Made by a program: the position numbers and the translations under genes. From a virus, in the IMG/VR virus record IMGVR_UViG_3300031608_000001, positions 2,663 to 66,662 of that record: a stretch of 64,000 bases of DNA. The stretch is one strand, 5' to 3'. This document shows, one piece after another, positions 692-35,437 of the stretch (the first letter of the stretch is position 1; every line of letters begins with the position of its first letter). The notes under the pieces were generated by a model. That model was not told the origin of the DNA. It saw only the letters and a list, made by a program, of their open reading frames with translations, and searched no databases.

Positions 692-729
692 AATAAAAAC
701 TCCTACGTCTTTTGTTAAACTATGTGCAT

Positions 730-758
730 ATTATACTAAAAAACCGCCGTGAGGTCAA
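730..758 (-). promoter_or_regulatory. sigma70-like early promoter
   Basis: TTGACC(758-753)-N17-TATAAT(735-730). Confidence 0.85.
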
Positions 759-3802: not shown

Positions 3803-3832
3803 AACTTATACTCCTAACTAACCTATGTTGCA

Positions 3833-4941: not shown

Positions 4942-5260
4942 GTGTAGTATTTACTACAATTGACTCAATATGTGGTGCTAGTCCGGTTTCTTTGCCGGTT
5001 GCTTGGAATAGTTGCACGAAGGCATTACAGTCGCCTGTATTTTCAAAATAGATACGCCAAATATTGTCGCTACCTATCGTGGTCATATGGAATACGCCTT
5101 GAGCATTTACATCAAAGTGATCAAGTAATTCCCAAAGGGTATCATCGTCTTTGGCTGACTGAAACACTTCAAGTTTATTTTGTAACATACTTTCATAGGT
5201 AGGAGTACCAATTAAACCTTGGTACTCTATCCCTGTAAGTTTTTTACTTCTTTTAATCAT
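4928..5260 (-). CDS. hypothetical protein
   Basis: 110 aa ORF; WRIYFENxxDxxxF motif. Confidence 0.7.
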   Translation of the reverse strand: MIKRSKKLTGIEYQGLIGTPTYESMLQNKLEVFQSAKDDDTLWELLDHFDVNAQGVFHMTTIGSDNIWRIYFENTGDCNAFVQLFQATGKETGLAPHIESIVVNTTHDTE

Positions 5261-6483
5261 TATGCCTTGTACTTAACTGTTACGCCATATGGTGCTACTG
5301 GAGTTCTTCCACCGTAGCCTGCGCCGTGTACAATAAACAATGTATCGCAGTAATCTTCGTCACCCCAACTACCCCATGGGTAGCCATCTGTGAATACAAT
5401 TAGTTTCTGTGGTACAATGTCTTCTTCTTTAAGACGCTCAAACATACAATCAAACTCAGTACCGCCACCACCTTCGATTTGAATGTCGTGTATTTCATCA
5501 ACGTTACTAGCATCAAATTCGTGTATAGTGTAAGTGTCTGTATCAAAGAAACAAAGTCTTAATACAAAGTTTGTGTACTGCTCCATGATACCTTTTACTT
5601 CACTACAAAGATCTCTAAGCATATCGTCGCCCATAGAACCGGAACTATCAATAAAGCAAAATACATCTAAGTCTGTGTCGTAATCCATACCAGGAAGATA
5701 AACTTGTTCAGCAATACCTTTTCTAGCAGGTCTCATAAAAGTGTAATCGTTCTTAACAACACTTTGAATGTTCGTAGCAAGAAGGTCTCTCCAATCCAAC
5801 TCAGGATTAGTAAGTTCTTGTATCATCTTTCTAACGCCTCTTGGTACATCTTTATTACTAGCACCTTTAGACGCATTCATGATTGCTTCTTTCATCTCCT
5901 CGCGGATTTGGTTTCTTTCTTCCTCGGAGTATTCTGGTGGTCCATCTTCGCCGTCTTGTCCTGGAGCATTAGCTCTTGGACCAGTACCGTCACCATCTTC
6001 GTCACCGTCAAAGTCTAAATGCATGTCTAATGTTTCTTGGTTCTGATCACCGTTCTCAAACAAGTCATCGTATACTTCATCGGAAATCCAGTTCTGATAT
6101 TTGTAATCAAAACAGATATTAACTTTGGTAATCTTCTTACCAATGTTGTTTTCAACTAAGTCCATGTTCACAACATAGTCATTTGCTATGTTCCATAAAC
6201 GAGGTTCTCTGTTGCCTCTACGATCCATATGATCATAAACACAATGTAATACCTCATGCCCCATTAGGAAGATAAGTTCATCATCATCCAATGTGTTAAT
6301 AAATTCTGTATTATAAAAGAAATGTCTGCCATCTGTTGCGGCAGTCGGGCACCAACTAGATGCCTCTTGTAACTCTAACCTAGTAGCCAGGTTACCAAAG
6401 AAGCCATTATTCAAAAGTAATTGTACCCTTGCGGTAATCAATCTATCTTTTGTTTCTTCTGCTGTAAATGTTGCTATATTCAT
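5260..6483 (-). CDS. metallopeptidase-like (HExxH) plus VWA-like domain protein (DUF2201 type)
   Basis: TAATDG, HEVLH, acidic linker, MIDAS-like DSSGSM, GGGTEF, FTDG. Confidence 0.88.
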   Translation of the reverse strand: MNIATFTAEETKDRLITARVQLLLNNGFFGNLATRLELQEASSWCPTAATDGRHFFYNTEFINTLDDDELIFLMGHEVLHCVYDHMDRRGNREPRLWNIANDYVVNMDLVENNIGKKITKVNICFDYKYQNWISDEVYDDLFENGDQNQETLDMHLDFDGDEDGDGTGPRANAPGQDGEDGPPEYSEEERNQIREEMKEAIMNASKGASNKDVPRGVRKMIQELTNPELDWRDLLATNIQSVVKNDYTFMRPARKGIAEQVYLPGMDYDTDLDVFCFIDSSGSMGDDMLRDLCSEVKGIMEQYTNFVLRLCFFDTDTYTIHEFDASNVDEIHDIQIEGGGGTEFDCMFERLKEEDIVPQKLIVFTDGYPWGSWGDEDYCDTLFIVHGAGYGGRTPVAPYGVTVKYKA

Positions 6484-6512
6484 ATTGAAGTTCTCCTACA
6501 AACTATACTTAT

Positions 6513-6541
6513 ATTATACTAAAAAAACTGGGTAAGGTCAA
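6513..6541 (-). promoter_or_regulatory. sigma70-like early promoter
   Basis: TTGACC-N17-TATAAT; RBS TTGTAGGAG. Confidence 0.85.
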
Positions 6542-6554
6542 CCTACTTTTACTT

Positions 6555-6590
6555 AAAAAGGATGGGGGGACCGTTAAGATCCCCCCTATA
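6555..6590 (-). terminator. intrinsic terminator after MoxR gene
   Basis: GGGGGGATC-TTAAC-GGTCCCCCC then ATCC-TTTTT on minus strand. Confidence 0.7.
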
Positions 6591-6644
6591 GTCTGCGTCG
6601 CGTCGTTGTAGGTTGTAGGAGTAACTGGCGACACAGGAACTAAC
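6555..6644 (-). ncRNA. candidate 3'-UTR small RNA with anti-RBS loop
   Basis: stem CUGUGUCGC/GCGACGCAG (one G.U pair) enclosing ACUCCUACAACCUAC, followed by terminator; expression is inferred. Confidence 0.45.
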
Positions 6645-7724
6645 TTATGAGCCGATGTTCATATACTTGCCGTATCTTTCAACCCACTCGTCGATACGAT
6701 CTACATCAGCAAAATCTACGTCTATCTCGTACTCGCTAAGAGCAATCTTACATCCGAGTACGCACATTTCTGGTTCGAAATTGTCCATTAAGAAGTTAAT
6801 AAAGTTATTGAACGAAGTTGTAAGTGCCTTCTCGTCCTCTGACTCTTGAATGTTTTTCAACTCATAGCTCATACCTACTGTAAGAGCATACTTGGAAGAT
6901 ATTTCAAGTTTCTTAAGTTCTGTAACCTTACCTGAAAGTATTTCAGAAGGGTTAGGAAGTTTAGAAGCATTCTTCTTATGATTCATAAATTTGATTGCCA
7001 TACCTTCACCAACCAAACCTGTTACAATGTCCATCTCCTCATCATGAGTCATGTCACTGTCTTCAAGCATCTGGCTAACAAAAGCCCAACTTCTTGGAGT
7101 AGCAAAACTTCTGCTTGAACTCTTAGGATCAAAGTCAAAAAGGTCTTGTTTAGCAAAAGCCAAGTAACCAACAACATCAGCAAGGATGTTATTTTCAATA
7201 GCCCATGTCTGCCATACACCGTGGTTAACTTCTACTTCTAAGTGAAGGAACCTGTTAGCAAGTGGACTAGGCATTCTGTAAGTAACACCTTTATCAGTGT
7301 CTCTGTTACCAGCCGCCGCAAGTACTACATTATCAGGTAGTACATAGTTACCAACACGTCTGTTAAGGATCAACTGATAAGCAGTTGCCTGTACACTTGG
7401 AGGTGCTGAGTTTAATTCGTCTAAGAACAAGTAGACAGTTTCATACTGACTAGCAAGTTCTTCTGAAGGTAGTTCGGCAGGTGCCGCCCACTTCATTTTG
7501 TTATCTGTTTCGTCCCTGTACGGATATCCTTTGATATCAGTTGGATCTAATAAAGCCATTCTCAAGTCGATTAAAAGGTTGTTACCTTCTTCGGCTATCT
7601 GAGCTAGGATGTCGGATTTACCAACTCCTGGAGGTCCCCATATAAATACAGGACGCTTCTTAGCGAAGGCTCTCTTGATATGCTTCTTAGCACGATCGAG
7701 TTTAATTTTTCTTACATTTTCCAT
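6645..7724 (-). CDS. MoxR-type AAA+ ATPase
   Basis: Walker A GPPGVGKS, Walker B LFLDELN, AAGN, PLANRF, TPRSW; adjacent VWA partner. Confidence 0.9.
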   Translation of the reverse strand: MENVRKIKLDRAKKHIKRAFAKKRPVFIWGPPGVGKSDILAQIAEEGNNLLIDLRMALLDPTDIKGYPYRDETDNKMKWAAPAELPSEELASQYETVYLFLDELNSAPPSVQATAYQLILNRRVGNYVLPDNVVLAAAGNRDTDKGVTYRMPSPLANRFLHLEVEVNHGVWQTWAIENNILADVVGYLAFAKQDLFDFDPKSSSRSFATPRSWAFVSQMLEDSDMTHDEEMDIVTGLVGEGMAIKFMNHKKNASKLPNPSEILSGKVTELKKLEISSKYALTVGMSYELKNIQESEDEKALTTSFNNFINFLMDNFEPEMCVLGCKIALSEYEIDVDFADVDRIDEWVERYGKYMNIGS

Positions 7725-7761
7725 ATTTTATTGCTCCTACACAATTATTTAATATACAACT

Positions 7762-7790
7762 ATTATACTAAATTGTTGGGTTAAGGTCAA
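7762..7790 (-). promoter_or_regulatory. sigma70-like early promoter
   Basis: TTGACC-N17-TATAAT; RBS GTGTAGGAG. Confidence 0.85.
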
Positions 7791-8483: not shown

Positions 8484-8518
8484 AAAAACTCCTACGTTTT
8501 TGTTTAACCTATGTGTAT

Positions 8519-8547
8519 ATTATAGCAAAATACAGGGTCAAGGTCAA
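8519..8547 (-). promoter_or_regulatory. sigma70-like early promoter
   Basis: TTGACC-N17-TATAAT; RBS CGTAGGAGT. Confidence 0.85.
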
Positions 8548-10704: not shown

Positions 10705-10738
10705 AATTTCAAACTCCTACATTCTTAACTTAACTTGC

Positions 10739-12095: not shown

Positions 12096-12348
12096 CTTGT
12101 TTTAACATAAACCATGTAAATTTGCCTAAGTCTCTCTCTGTTTTAAAACTAACAAATGCTCTGTCGTTTTTATTGGGTTGATCTATGTAAGGTGCTGACC
12201 TTTCAAACCACCAACCGTATCCATCCGTAATATTATCTTCGCACCACATCAAGTAACCGTGATTTATAGCATGACCAGTCATTCTGTAGTTGTACTCATA
12301 CTTCCGGTTATACTCACCAATCTTAATGCTATTTGAATTGGCCACCAT
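12085..12348 (-). CDS. hypothetical protein (start uncertain)
   Basis: WC..N..GYGWWF and FVSFKTERD motifs. Confidence 0.65.
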   Translation of the reverse strand: MVANSNSIKIGEYNRKYEYNYRMTGHAINHGYLMWCEDNITDGYGWWFERSAPYIDQPNKNDRAFVSFKTERDLGKFTWFMLKQDED

Positions 12349-12502
12349 CGACTTCCATGGACATACTCTGCTTCGCTACTACATCTTTTGTAGGAGTAAC
12401 TTCGCCAAGTGCTATTAGTAATTCACTAATGTCTAATGAAACTACAGTTGAACCTTTAGATTGATAGAACTTTAAATTTTCAATCAGCGTTTTTAATTTC
12501 AT
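12329..12502 (-). CDS. small hypothetical protein, 57 aa (not in ORF track)
   Basis: MKLKTLIENLKFYQSKG...MEVDGGQFK fills the gap between neighbours. Confidence 0.6.
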   Translation of the reverse strand: MKLKTLIENLKFYQSKGSTVVSLDISELLIALGEVTPTKDVVAKQSMSMEVDGGQFK

Positions 12503-30158: not shown

Positions 30159-30176
30159 AAATTTGTTTCCTACATA

Positions 30177-32033: not shown

Positions 32034-32046
32034 TTATGTTCTCCTA

Positions 32047-33591
32047 CTAACTTATGACTGCTCTGTCTGTTACTCGTCTCCAACTAGTGCCATCGCTAAA
32101 TGCCATTATTGGACCACCATTTTCATTTGACACATAAATCATGTGCCCTATGTAGGCAGAAGCATCAGGAACCCCTGATACTGTATATCGTGGAAACTCA
32201 ACTGGTCCTCCACTACTTTCAACTACACCATAGTCGCTGTTGACTAATGCTGTAACTGATTCTGTTAAATTACCATAGTCAACACTATCTGTTGCTGTGG
32301 TTGAAATTGCTCCGTAATCACTTACGGTTTCGAATAAGATTGATGATACAGTACCACCGACTGTTACTTTGGCTTCTGCTTCATCATATGTGAATGAGCC
32401 ACTACTTCCAAGTACTCCCTCATCATTGTATTGTACATGCGTGTTGCTTCCTGCTGGTGGTAACGTTTTAGCATCAACGTATGCTTTGACTGATTGCTGT
32501 GAAGGAAGTCTAGTAGCACTATTGGATGACAAGGTATCCTCGTCAATTAGTGTTGCTGTTATTCTAGCATCTGCCCTAGCGTCTGTGTAGTACTTGTTAG
32601 TACCTTCAGTAATATTAGTTGTGCTAGGTGTCGTAAATGTTACTCCACCGGAGCCGTTTGTTGTTAATACTTGGTTAGCACTACCATCGCTAGTAGGAAA
32701 ACTATAAGCACCGTTTACATTAACAGTACCTGTAACTGTTATACCTGTAGCAGTTGTAATAAATTTTATGCTACTGTTATGATTTAATTGTTGTCCACCA
32801 CCGGAACTAAATATTGCTGATGTTTTACTACCTGCTAAGTTAGTTATTGTAAAGGCACCCGATCTTAATCTTATAGATCCTGTGCCGGCATCGTCGATGT
32901 AACTGTTACTACCATCATGATATATTTGTAAGTCGTTACCAGTACCAAAGTTTAGTTTATTGTTGTCTCCAAACTTGGCAGATGATGTACCACCAGTGAC
33001 GATTATTGTATTTGCTTTAACAGTATTTGCCGCGCCATTTGGTTGAATGCTACCTGTTACAGTACCACTTAAATTACCAATGAATGTACCAGCACTTAAC
33101 GTATCACCGTTAACTGTCCATTCACCTTCATCTTCGTCCCAACGTATAAACACATTACTTTCAGCACCCCTGTTTACAAGTATGCCTGCGTTTGCTGTGG
33201 CTTGTTGATTTGATGCTAAGTCGCTGTTTAAGACAATTTCGTTATCGGCTATATTGAGAGTTTCTGTATTGATTATTGACTGTGTACCATTAACTGTTAA
33301 GTTACCTGATATTACAACATCATCACTAAATGTAGATGCCTGGTCAACTCTTGCAAAACTTGTACTATTAACACCGTCTACTGTACCTGCGTCAAGCAGA
33401 TTCCATGTGACACTTTCGCCACTCACCGTTGCTATTTTTAGTAATGTATTACTAGAATCGAACCAAAGGTCTCCTGTTGAGATTGCACTAACGTCACTAG
33501 GGGCGTCAGATGTCCCGTATATTCTAGAACCACGTCTTCCAATTCTAAAACTACTTTGCGAGGTGCCTTTGGCATTCATAATGATTGCCAT
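32047..33591 (-). CDS. virion fibre/structural protein
   Basis: G/S/T-rich; GDLWFD, GNLTVNGT, DLQIYHDG, FSDGTSWRR modules. Confidence 0.8.
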   Translation of the reverse strand: MAIIMNAKGTSQSSFRIGRRGSRIYGTSDAPSDVSAISTGDLWFDSSNTLLKIATVSGESVTWNLLDAGTVDGVNSTSFARVDQASTFSDDVVISGNLTVNGTQSIINTETLNIADNEIVLNSDLASNQQATANAGILVNRGAESNVFIRWDEDEGEWTVNGDTLSAGTFIGNLSGTVTGSIQPNGAANTVKANTIIVTGGTSSAKFGDNNKLNFGTGNDLQIYHDGSNSYIDDAGTGSIRLRSGAFTITNLAGSKTSAIFSSGGGQQLNHNSSIKFITTATGITVTGTVNVNGAYSFPTSDGSANQVLTTNGSGGVTFTTPSTTNITEGTNKYYTDARADARITATLIDEDTLSSNSATRLPSQQSVKAYVDAKTLPPAGSNTHVQYNDEGVLGSSGSFTYDEAEAKVTVGGTVSSILFETVSDYGAISTTATDSVDYGNLTESVTALVNSDYGVVESSGGPVEFPRYTVSGVPDASAYIGHMIYVSNENGGPIMAFSDGTSWRRVTDRAVIS

Positions 33592-35373: not shown

Positions 35374-35408
35374 ATAAAACTCCTACCTTTTTGTTAAACT
35401 ATGTGCAT

Positions 35409-35437
35409 ATTATACCACATTTCGTGGCAGAAGTCAA
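35409..35437 (-). promoter_or_regulatory. sigma70-like early promoter
   Basis: TTGACT-N17-TATAAT; leader nearly identical to 692-736. Confidence 0.85.

What the first reader, a model, noticed from the sequence alone, without database searches (positions are those of the whole stretch)
6555..6644. Candidate phage small RNA displaying an antisense copy of the early-gene RBS
Seen: after the MoxR stop (minus strand) a 9-bp stem (6636-6628 with 6601-6593) encloses ACUCCUACAACCUAC, followed by a GC-rich terminator. Both stems contain G.U pairs that become mismatches on the plus strand, favouring a minus-strand RNA. The loop is the reverse complement of GUAGGAG(U), the RBS of genes behind sigma70 promoters: 699-706, 6493-6501, 7734-7741, 8488-8495, 10713-10721 and 35379-35386, with partial matches at 3809-3816 and 30168-30174. 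It also precedes the non-early gene at 32041-32047. Other genes mostly use AAGGAG/GAGG or are leaderless. The conserved GU before AGGAG is not explained by the usual 16S anti-SD. Inference: a 3'-UTR-derived RNA accumulates from an early transcript and blocks translation of the early regulon, including its own mRNA, acting as an RNA timer in the role T4 RegB/RegA play with protein. I know no direct precedent but cannot search. A 14-nt copy at 12388-12401 lies in coding sequence and may be chance.
Basis: partly seen in the sequence, partly recalled or inferred. Interest (0 to 1): 0.88.

Follow-up and report, generated by a model that had tools for sequence, protein, structure and literature searches.

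The report
Anti-ribosome-site hairpin in phage mRNA tail
The tail of a phage ATPase messenger RNA carries a conserved hairpin whose loop can pair with the ribosome-binding site of that same message and of similar promoter-proximal messages, most likely to limit their translation.

Summary
After the moxR-like ATPase gene (minus strand) lies a 9-bp hairpin (6636-6593) with loop core GUUACUCCUACAACCUAC, then an intrinsic terminator (6586-6555). The window is part of an 18%-complete uncultured marine jumbo-phage record.

The hairpin recurs after the same gene in 39 related viral contigs. There are 23 distinct versions and 14 stem types, and the stems always pair. The 18-nt core is identical in a clade whose ATPase is only 51% identical.

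The loop is the reverse complement of an SD box (GUAGGAGUAA) found mainly in leaders behind sigma70-like promoters. The best-supported partner is moxR's own 5' leader, with 7-10 nt of Watson-Crick match in 28 of 28 distinct loci. A third clade has no hairpin, yet its 3'UTR and leader carry matching changes (UUGCUCCU/AGGAGCAA; UUGCGCUCCU/AGGAGCGCAA).

So this is most likely a 3'UTR anti-SD element like S. aureus icaR, possibly also acting in trans on the VWA partner gene and other leaders. No RNA ends or repression were shown. It is not in Rfam.

This scan noted the same family before in two other genomes (e1-6001215, e1-6119005). The 14-nt copy at 12388-12401 is chance.

The parts
7762..7790 (-). 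sigma70-like promoter of the moxR-like gene (TTGACC 7790-7785, 17-nt spacer, TATAAT 7767-7762)
   Evidence: a promoter precedes moxR in related loci too
7725..7761 (-). moxR 5' leader. The SD box UGUAGGAG (7741-7734) is complementary to loop CUCCUACA (8 nt WC; duplex -16.5 kcal/mol)
6645..7724 (-). moxR-like AAA+ ATPase gene, 359 aa (PHROG 1297 ATPase, E 1.7e-97; Pfam AAA_5 21.8 bits, just under the 22-bit cut-off)
6593..6636 (-). 9-bp hairpin (CUGUGUCGC / GCGACGCAG, one U.G pair) with a 26-nt loop
6608..6625 (-). conserved loop core GUUACUCCUACAACCUAC, the anti-SD box. Identical in 14 of 14 close relatives and in L049/L051, whose ATPase is 51% identical
6555..6586 (-). intrinsic terminator (9-bp G+C stem with one U.G pair, loop UUAAC, AUCC, U5)
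6513..6541 (-). sigma70-like promoter of the downstream gene (TTGACC 6541-6536, 17-nt spacer, TATAAT 6518-6513)
6484..6512 (-). leader of the downstream gene. UUGUAGGAG (6501-6493) gives 9 nt WC with the loop. The reverse complement of the leader matches the loop over about 20 nt with one bulge and two mismatches. Duplex -18.5 kcal/mol, the best in the record
5260..6483 (-). partner gene, 407 aa: DUF2201_N putative metallopeptidase plus DUF2201 VWA-like domain
700..706 (-). GUAGGAG(U) SD box behind a promoter (candidate further target)
8489..8495 (-). GUAGGAG(U) SD box behind a promoter (candidate further target)
10714..10720 (-). UGUAGGAGU SD box behind a promoter (9 nt WC with the loop)
35380..35386 (-). 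GUAGGAG(U) SD box behind a promoter (candidate further target)
3809..3816 (-). UAGGAGUA SD box behind a promoter (8 nt WC with the loop)
32041..32047 (-). GUAGGAG SD of an internal gene without a promoter

Best explanation
The last ~90 nt of the moxR-like ATPase mRNA form a conserved regulatory module: a hairpin that displays an anti-Shine-Dalgarno box (GUUACUCCUAC...) in its loop, followed by the terminator.

The box base-pairs with the SD box (GUAGGAGUAA-type) of the same gene's 5' leader. The pairing may be within one molecule or between molecules. It would occlude the ribosome-binding site, limit MoxR translation, and possibly create a nuclease substrate, as shown for S. aureus icaR.

The same SD box sits in the leader of the DUF2201/VWA partner gene and in several other leaders behind sigma70-like promoters. 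The terminated 3' end, or a fragment of it, could therefore also act on those in trans.

Shown here: the structure, its conservation, the complementarity, and co-variation between leader and 3'UTR. Inferred: that pairing happens in vivo, the sign of the effect, and cis versus trans.
For: 1. Structure. The fold has z -4.56 on the minus strand only. I examined 34 sequences (the window, 8 window-clade relatives and 25 loci of a second search). They give 23 distinct hairpins with 14 stem types, and all 23 keep a 7-15 bp helix around the loop. Arms from different stem types paired crosswise reach 7 bp in only 7.2% of 456 combinations. A covariance-model alignment of clade B has 11 distinct rows, one of them a reverse-strand artefact. 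In it 7 of 11 pairs change on both sides and 94.8% of cells pair, against 22-48% when partners are slid. None of 500 shuffles reaches this. The window's 3' arm differs from that of its 14 relatives at two pairs by U-A/U-G swaps that keep the stem.

2. Selection. Among 9 distinct window-clade sequences, 75 of 100 third-codon positions vary in the last 300 nt of moxR. Only 3 of 30 columns vary in the 5' arm plus loop, and 0 of 18 in the core. The core is identical in L049/L051, where the ATPase is 51% and the partner 53% identical.

3. Pairing with moxR's own leader. In 28 of 28 distinct loci the longest Watson-Crick match is 7-10 nt (mean 8.89). Shuffles that keep the CUCC core give a mean of 5.42, and 0 of 1000 reach the observed mean. 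Mean duplex energy is -17.2 kcal/mol against -8.7 for shuffled loops, 0 of 200 as low.

4. Co-variation. Clade C (5 distinct loci) has no hairpin. A single-stranded stretch before the terminator reads UUGCUCCU where the leader reads AGGAGCAA(C), and UUGCGCUCCU where the leader reads AGGAGCGCAA. In clades A and B the pair is UUACUCCU with AGGAGUAA.

5. Class specificity. Matches of 7 nt or more occur in 8 of 11 promoter-proximal leaders against 2 of 76 internal upstream regions in this record (p 1.2e-7). Pooled over 7 records the figures are 29 of 60 against 20 of 349.

6. The partner-gene leader stays complementary in 4 of 4 records where other DNA (1-1.4 kb) separates it from the hairpin.

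7. Precedent. icaR 3'UTR/SD pairing blocks initiation and feeds RNase III (PMC3868564, abstract).
Against: - No experimental or read-level evidence exists for the RNA's ends, abundance or any repression. Only contigs of RNA libraries were available.
- The loci are related, so the shuffle statistics overstate independence. Per-representative tests with the core kept give 1 to 120 of 1000 shuffles as good. L103 and L100 are weak at 120 and 104.
- Co-variation between clades A and B is one-sided. 14 of 15 A leaders prefer A loops, but only 3 of 8 B leaders prefer B loops.
- Any CUCCU-containing RNA matches SDs to some degree.
- Leaders behind promoters look like paralogous cassettes, so their shared box may partly reflect common descent.
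- The element is absent after the homologous ATPase of PA5oct and of 9 other contig groups (L014-18, L020, L021, L040, L041). It is therefore not essential to the gene pair.
- In clade C2 the partner leader does not follow the moxR-specific change.
Confidence: 0.6

Rival explanations
1. A stable ~90-nt 3'UTR-derived sRNA accumulates and acts mainly in trans as a global anti-SD regulator. It shuts off the whole class of genes behind sigma70-like promoters as an RNA timer.
For: - 8 of 11 promoter-proximal leaders in this record carry matches of 7-9 nt.
- U precedes AGGAG in 7 of 7 of them, against 1 of 9 internal genes.
- A hairpin, an A/U spacer and a U-tailed terminator form the usual body of 3'-end sRNAs (established knowledge).
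- The partner leader remains complementary when it is 1-1.4 kb away.
- There is only one copy of the hairpin per record, in 7 of 7 records searched.
Against: - No discrete RNA was shown (one search gives contigs only).
- The co-variation follows moxR's own leader, not the other leaders.
- In other records only 2 of 6 to 5 of 9 leaders match.
- The temporal class of these genes is unknown.
Confidence: 0.2
2. The hairpin is a protein-binding, stability or termination-assisting element of the moxR mRNA 3' end. Repeated CCUAC motifs would serve as a protein site. Its complementarity to leaders is a by-product of descent from an inverted promoter-leader cassette.
For: - The loop carries 2-3 CCUAC repeats in all clades.
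- It always abuts a terminator.
- The loop's reverse complement resembles both the -35 context (GTAGGTTG) and the leader.
Against: - A relic would not stay invariant while 75% of neighbouring third-codon positions change.
- Clade C keeps the complementarity with no hairpin and no CCUAC repeats, and with compensating changes on both sides.
Confidence: 0.13
3. Cis sequestration in read-through transcripts, as recalled for T4 late genes read from early transcripts. The anti-SD upstream of the partner-gene promoter masks that gene's SD only in transcripts that read through the terminator.
For: The adjacent partner leader is the best match in this record: -18.5 kcal/mol, about 17 of 20 nt, arms ~115 nt apart.
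Against: - A strong terminator lies in between.
- In 13 of the 25 loci of the second search the partner gene is not adjacent, yet the hairpin is kept. In the 4 records checked it lies 1-1.4 kb away.
- The MFE fold of the read-through RNA keeps the hairpin and does not pair the loop with the SD. Pseudoknots are not modelled.
Confidence: 0.05
4. Chance: an ordinary 3' hairpin whose loop happens to contain CUCCUAC.
For: CTCCTAC occurs 3 times on the transcribed strand of the record, about the chance number. The other long copy, at 12388-12401, is chance.
Against: Conservation, stem covariation and leader co-variation across three clades.
Confidence: 0.02

Closest known systems
icaR mRNA 5'-UTR/3'-UTR interaction, Staphylococcus aureus (PMC3868564; abstract read)
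   Same: An anti-SD motif in the 3'UTR of an mRNA is complementary to the SD region of the same mRNA. The proposed outcome is blocked initiation and a double-stranded nuclease substrate.
   Different: Here the system is in a phage. The anti-SD is displayed in a hairpin loop directly before the terminator of a short 3'UTR, whereas icaR has a long 3'UTR with a UCCCCUG motif. The box is shared by several other leaders, so trans targets are possible. Nothing has been tested experimentally.
3'UTR-derived trans-acting sRNAs of bacteria (class; papers seen only as search listings, e.g. PMC8625941, PMC12704781)
   Same: The body is a hairpin plus a U-tailed terminator at an mRNA 3' end, with a conserved single-stranded seed and possible multiple targets at ribosome-binding sites.
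   Different: No processed species or chaperone dependence is shown. The best-supported target is the parent mRNA itself.
Phage T4 RegB endoribonuclease and RegA repressor (PMC1702504, abstract start in the listing; PMC3014915 listing only)
   Same: Post-transcriptional shut-off aimed at the SD region (GGAG) of a class of early phage mRNAs.
   Different: Those act through proteins, while this would act through RNA-RNA pairing. No RegB family match was found in the record, but the record is 18% complete and the control genomes gave no match, so this is uninformative.
SD sequestration of T4 late genes in early read-through transcripts (recalled from general knowledge; not checked in any call)
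   Same: An anti-SD upstream of a promoter can mask the SD downstream of it.
   Different: Here a terminator intervenes, and the element persists where the target gene is not adjacent.
sRNAs mapped in jumbo Pseudomonas phages (PMC11512511; passages read)
   Same: Conserved small structured RNAs in jumbo-phage intergenic regions or UTRs, of unknown function.
   Different: Those reported are intergenic or 5'UTR-derived premature-termination products. None is described as a 3'UTR anti-SD hairpin. Supplementary tables could not be seen.

Membership tests
icaR-type 5'/3'-UTR anti-SD interaction | Anti-SD motif located in the 3'UTR of the mRNA | tested here: met
   The loop box at 6625-6608 lies between the stop codon (6647-6645) and the terminator. 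The position is the same in 28 of 28 distinct loci.
icaR-type 5'/3'-UTR anti-SD interaction | Complementarity to the SD region of the same mRNA, beyond the SD core | tested here: met
   7-10 nt WC in 28 of 28 loci. 0 of 1000 core-kept shuffles reach the mean. In the window: 8 nt, -16.5 kcal/mol.
icaR-type 5'/3'-UTR anti-SD interaction | The two sites co-evolve | tested here: met
   UUA/UAA, UUG/CAA and UUGCG/CGCAA extensions are matched in clades A/B, C1 and C2. The A-versus-B test is only one-sided.
icaR-type 5'/3'-UTR anti-SD interaction | Pairing inhibits initiation and/or gives RNase III cleavage | not testable with these tools
   Needs toeprinting, reporters and RNase assays.
3'UTR-derived trans-acting sRNA | A discrete stable 3' fragment exists | tested here: inconclusive
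   Only contigs of RNA libraries could be laid. They cannot show ends or levels.
3'UTR-derived trans-acting sRNA | Conserved seed with several complementary targets | tested here: met
   8 of 11 promoter-proximal leaders against 2 of 76 internal regions in this record. Pooled: 29 of 60 against 20 of 349.
Any described RNA family (Rfam 15) | Match at the gathering score | tested here: not met
   No match in the window or in 5 related loci. The E-value scan of 6440-6700 gives only sub-threshold chance hits.
Intrinsic terminator only | G+C stem followed by a U run, with nothing else conserved | tested here: not met
   The terminator is present. The upstream hairpin loop is separately conserved, with 0 of 18 core columns varying.

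The most novel reading that the evidence does not exclude
A phage-encoded, hairpin-displayed anti-SD riboregulator released from the moxR mRNA 3' end acts in trans on a whole class of host-polymerase-transcribed phage leaders. These leaders carry a private SD dialect (GUAGGAGUAA) that ordinary genes avoid. In some relatives a late-gene 3'UTR carries a perfect 13-nt copy of the target box (GGUAGGGAGUAAC) and would act as a sponge. Together these would form an RNA-only circuit that times phage gene expression.
Probability: 0.2. Interest if true: 0.85.

Novelty: new variant of a known kind. Interest (0 to 1): 0.66.

Why it matters
Post-transcriptional control by phage-encoded RNAs is little explored, and jumbo-phage sRNAs reported so far have no known targets (PMC11512511, passages). 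Here comparative data alone define three things:
- a conserved RNA structure;
- its likely target site;
- compensating changes on both partners, across three clades of uncultured marine jumbo phages.

That gives a directly testable case of 3'UTR-to-5'UTR anti-SD control in a virus. It also suggests why a set of phage leaders use an unusual extended SD. If trans action is confirmed, it would be an RNA counterpart of the protein-based early shut-off known from T4. It is also a candidate new RNA family for Rfam.

Tried and rejected
- **Phage similarity.** Megablast of the locus against 50,697 phage records found no match. At protein level the nearest ATPase is 50% identical (PA5oct group). The PA5oct 3'UTR has a plain terminator and no anti-SD.
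- **Known RNA families.** Rfam and tRNA scans found nothing.
- **Alignment-based folding.** RNAalifold on a MAFFT alignment of 10 clade-B sequences predicted only the terminator, because the arms were out of register. I therefore built a covariance model from 3 sequences with a hand-given structure. It found all 12 clade-B loci given to it. With filters off it found clade A only at E 9.4 for 1 of 12 sources. For that reason all-clade stem statistics were done by script.
- **Host search.** No relative of the ATPase turned up in 185,579 bacterial and archaeal genomes. The 17-mer of the loop gave 5 matches, all in unrelated coding-like contexts with no hairpin. The host and its 16S 3' tail therefore stay unknown.
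- **RegB family.** No match in the record, and none in the control genomes either, so the result is uninformative.
- **RNA evidence.** 14 of 20 listed runs are recorded as RNA. I laid 4 runs from 2 studies. Contigs of these RNA libraries cover moxR, and in some runs cover is thin or missing over 6454-6567. Contigs cannot show ends, strand or level, DNA carry-over is not excluded, and contig ends at 6596, 6584 and 6523 do not coincide. I draw no conclusion from this.
- **14-nt copy at 12388-12401.** It lies in a conserved 57-aa ORF, the 14-mer is not conserved, and the region is unstructured. Rejected as chance.
- **DNA-level reading.** I considered two inverted operator copies ~116 bp apart flanking the promoter. 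I rejected it because the stems covary as RNA (G.U pairs, entirely different stems) and because the spacing varies between clades.
- **A correction to my own reading.** I first thought the downstream gene differs among close relatives. tblastn showed it is the same DUF2201 gene (80-86% identity) with a variable N-terminus in 11 of 11 loci tested.
- **Supplements.** Supplementary files of the papers were not available. The sRNA table of PMC11512511 could bear on prior description.

Full report
**What the window is.** The window is 64,000 of the 66,662 bases of an IMG/VR virus record that CheckV rates 18% complete. Almost all genes lie on the minus strand. The family-B DNA polymerase is 41-48% identical to those of jumbo phages such as Phosso, Atu_ph07 and the GAP32/CBB group. 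No phage record is similar at DNA level. Runs that hold the sequence are labelled marine or seawater metagenomes. The host is unknown.

**The observation.** Reading the minus strand, the 359-aa ATPase gene ends with TAA at 6647-6645.
- The hairpin arms are CUGUGUCGC (6636-6628) and GCGACGCAG (6601-6593).
- They enclose a 26-nt loop that contains GUUACUCCUACAACCUAC (6625-6608).
- After six nucleotides comes a 9-bp G+C terminator stem (6586-6564), then AUCC and U5 (to 6555).
- Next is a promoter (TTGACC 6541-6536, 17-nt spacer, TATAAT 6518-6513).
- A 29-nt leader follows, with UUGUAGGAG at 6501-6493, then the ATG at 6483 of a 407-aa DUF2201_N/DUF2201 (putative metallopeptidase plus VWA-like) gene.

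The ATPase matches PHROG 1297 strongly. It matches Pfam AAA_5 only at 21.8 bits against a cut-off of 22, so 'MoxR-like' is a family-level label.

The plus strand does not: z -0.93.

**The SD box in this record.**
- GTAGGAG is enriched: 12 copies against 5.75 expected, and 0 of 100 shuffles reach 12.
- Seven of the nine minus-strand copies in the record are SDs, and six of these sit behind TTGAC-N17-TATAAT promoters.
- AGGAG SDs behind promoters are preceded by U in 7 of 7 cases. Among internal genes the figure is 1 of 9, and A precedes in 7 of 9, as an ordinary anti-SD would favour.
- Pooled over seven records the contrast is weaker: 20 of 26 against 16 of 42, p 0.0026. Some 'internal' genes probably have promoters that my pattern missed.

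**The hairpin is a conserved RNA.** A search of viral contigs with the ATPase gave 42 loci.
- Fourteen full-length relatives with about 90% identity all carry the element (L012 is cut short and was left out). The 18-nt core is identical in all 14.
- In these relatives the 3' arm reads GCGGCACAG instead of GCGACGCAG. This swaps U-G and U-A at two pairs and keeps the stem.
- Among 9 distinct sequences, 75 of 100 third-codon positions vary in the last 300 nt of the gene. Only 3 of 30 columns vary in the 5' arm plus loop, and none of the 18 core columns.

An exact 15-mer search gave 42 stretches. Most of them were either the known relatives or clear chance hits in coding sequence. Two hits, L049 and L051, were new. 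Their ATPase is 51% identical and their partner gene 53% identical to the window's. Yet the same 18-nt core sits at the same place inside a different stem, with an inner hairpin that itself covaries, before a terminator.

Searching with that ATPase gave 26 more loci. All 25 that reach the 3' end have the element.
- The 34 sequences examined give 23 distinct hairpins and 14 stem types.
- The helix is 7-15 bp in 23 of 23. Arms of different types paired crosswise reach 7 bp in 7.2% of 456 cases.
- A covariance model for clade B gave an alignment in which 7 of 11 pairs change on both sides and 94.8% of cells pair. Slid partners give 22-48%, and 0 of 500 shuffles do as well. This alignment was fitted to the model and contains one reverse-strand artefact row.
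- There is one copy per record in the seven records searched whole.
- No Rfam family matches the window or five relatives.

**What the loop is complementary to.** Across the clades, leaders behind sigma70-like promoters often carry an extended SD box. It is (G)UAGGAGUAA(U/C) in clades A and B1 and AAGGUAGGAG/AAGGUAGGAC in clade B2. The loop core GUUACUCCUAC is its reverse complement.

In this record 8 of 11 leaders behind promoters have a 7-9 nt Watson-Crick match to the loop, against 2 of 76 internal upstream regions (Fisher p 1.2e-7). The mean duplex energy of -12.45 kcal/mol is never reached by 300 shuffled loops. Pooled over seven records the figures are 29 of 60 against 20 of 349. Three of those records are close kin, so this is not seven independent tests.

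The most consistent partner is the ATPase gene's own leader.
- Most relatives read CGUAGGAGUAAU, which gives 10 Watson-Crick pairs with UUACUCCUAC. The window reads UGUAGGAGCAAU, which gives 8 pairs plus 3 more after one mismatch.
- All 23 distinct hairpin loci have 7-10 nt. Mean energy is -17.2 kcal/mol against -8.7 for shuffled loops, 0 of 200 as low.

**Co-variation.** A third clade (L022/23, L026, L039, L024, L025; ATPase about 52% identical) has no hairpin. The single-stranded stretch between the stop codon and the terminator reads UUGCUCCU, GUUGCUCCU or UUGCGCUCCU. The gene's own leader reads AGGAGCAA, AGGAGCAAC or AGGAGCGCAA respectively. That gives 7-10 nt of Watson-Crick match, with 0-4 of 300 shuffles as good.

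So the bases next to the SD core differ between clades (UAA, CAA, CGCAA), and the 3'UTR carries the matching complement each time (UUA, UUG, UUGCG).

With the CUCC core held fixed, shuffling the rest of the element gives a mean longest match of 5.42 against 8.89 observed over 28 loci, and 0 of 1000 shuffles reach the observed mean. Per representative, 1 to 120 of 1000 shuffles are as good.

Against this:
- A-clade leaders prefer A loops (14 of 15), but B-clade leaders show no preference (3 of 8).
- In clade C2 the partner gene's leader keeps the C1-type box.

The co-variation therefore ties the 3'UTR to the ATPase leader specifically.

**Cis or trans.** The partner gene's leader is the best match in this record: 9 contiguous pairs, about 17 of 20 with a bulge, -18.5 kcal/mol. 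In four records where 1-1.4 kb of other DNA separates the hairpin from that gene, the leader is still complementary.

That finding and the strong terminator argue against a mechanism that needs read-through. They leave two options open: intramolecular 5'-3' pairing of the ATPase mRNA, and trans action of the terminated 3' end.

Contigs from four marine RNA libraries cover the gene but cannot show ends or levels. The existence of a discrete small RNA is therefore untested.

**Comparison with what is known.**
- The closest described mechanism is the icaR mRNA of S. aureus. Its 3'UTR motif pairs with the SD region of the same mRNA, blocks the initiation complex and creates an RNase III substrate (PMC3868564, abstract).
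- T4 RegB acts on GGAG in early mRNAs, but as a protein (PMC1702504, abstract start).
- Jumbo-phage sRNAs have been mapped, but those described are intergenic or 5'UTR-derived and have no known targets (PMC11512511, passages).
- My searches found no description of a 3'UTR anti-SD hairpin in a phage. These are full-text searches of open-access papers only, and supplements were closed.
- This scan had already noted the same family in two other genomes with the same reading (e1-6001215, e1-6119005). Those are unchecked AI notes. I reached the icaR comparison before seeing them and tested the claims here.

**Verdict.**
- Observation: confirmed.
- A conserved, covarying 3'UTR hairpin that displays an anti-SD box: about 0.9.
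- It works by pairing with the SD box of the ATPase leader and possibly others: about 0.6.
- The regulon-wide trans 'timer': about 0.2.

It is a new variant of a known kind (an icaR-like 3'UTR anti-SD element, here in phages, hairpin-displayed, with a shared leader dialect).

Noticed in passing
L131:8905-8965 (minus strand; record G009), also L138-L142: The 3'UTR of a 1095-aa gene in clade-B relatives carries CCUAGGGUAGGGAGUAAC between the stop codon and the terminator. Thirteen of these nucleotides are a perfect complement of the clade-B moxR loop. The box is conserved in 5 of 5 contigs found with the pattern, while the terminator stems covary (GGGCGG/CCGCCC against GGGCAG/CUGCCC). It could be a partner or sponge of the hairpin RNA.
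   Followed up: partly
window 57227, 48979, 29833, 17534 (start codons, minus strand): Four genes start 6-7 nt after a TATAAT/TATACT -10 box behind a TTGACA -35 box, so their mRNAs are predicted to be leaderless. The same pattern recurs in five of the six related records scanned whole.
   Followed up: no
L096:2705-2860, and L097, L099, L110, L112: A non-coding stretch of about 150 nt directly after the moxR terminator is conserved in clade-B1 relatives and ends in its own hairpin. No Rfam or tRNA match was found.
   Followed up: partly
window 706-745, 8495-8535, 35386-35425 (minus strand): Three promoter-leader cassettes are near-identical over about 35 nt (TATAATAT(G/A)CACATAG(T/G)TTAA(A)CAAAA..GTAGGAGTTTT). 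Many leaders in all clades begin with AUAGGUU(G/A)A. That sequence is complementary to the distal half of the loop (CAACCUA), so the loop could contact both ends of a leader.
   Followed up: partly
window 12329-12502 (minus strand): An unannotated-looking 57-aa ORF (MKLKTLIENLKFYQSKG...) is conserved in length and at both termini in window-clade relatives, so it is probably a real small gene.
   Followed up: partly
window 6645-7724 and 5260-6483: The AAA+ ATPase and the DUF2201 (metallopeptidase plus VWA-like) gene form a conserved pair, each with its own promoter, in all clades examined. In some relatives 1-1.4 kb of other DNA has been inserted between them.
   Followed up: partly
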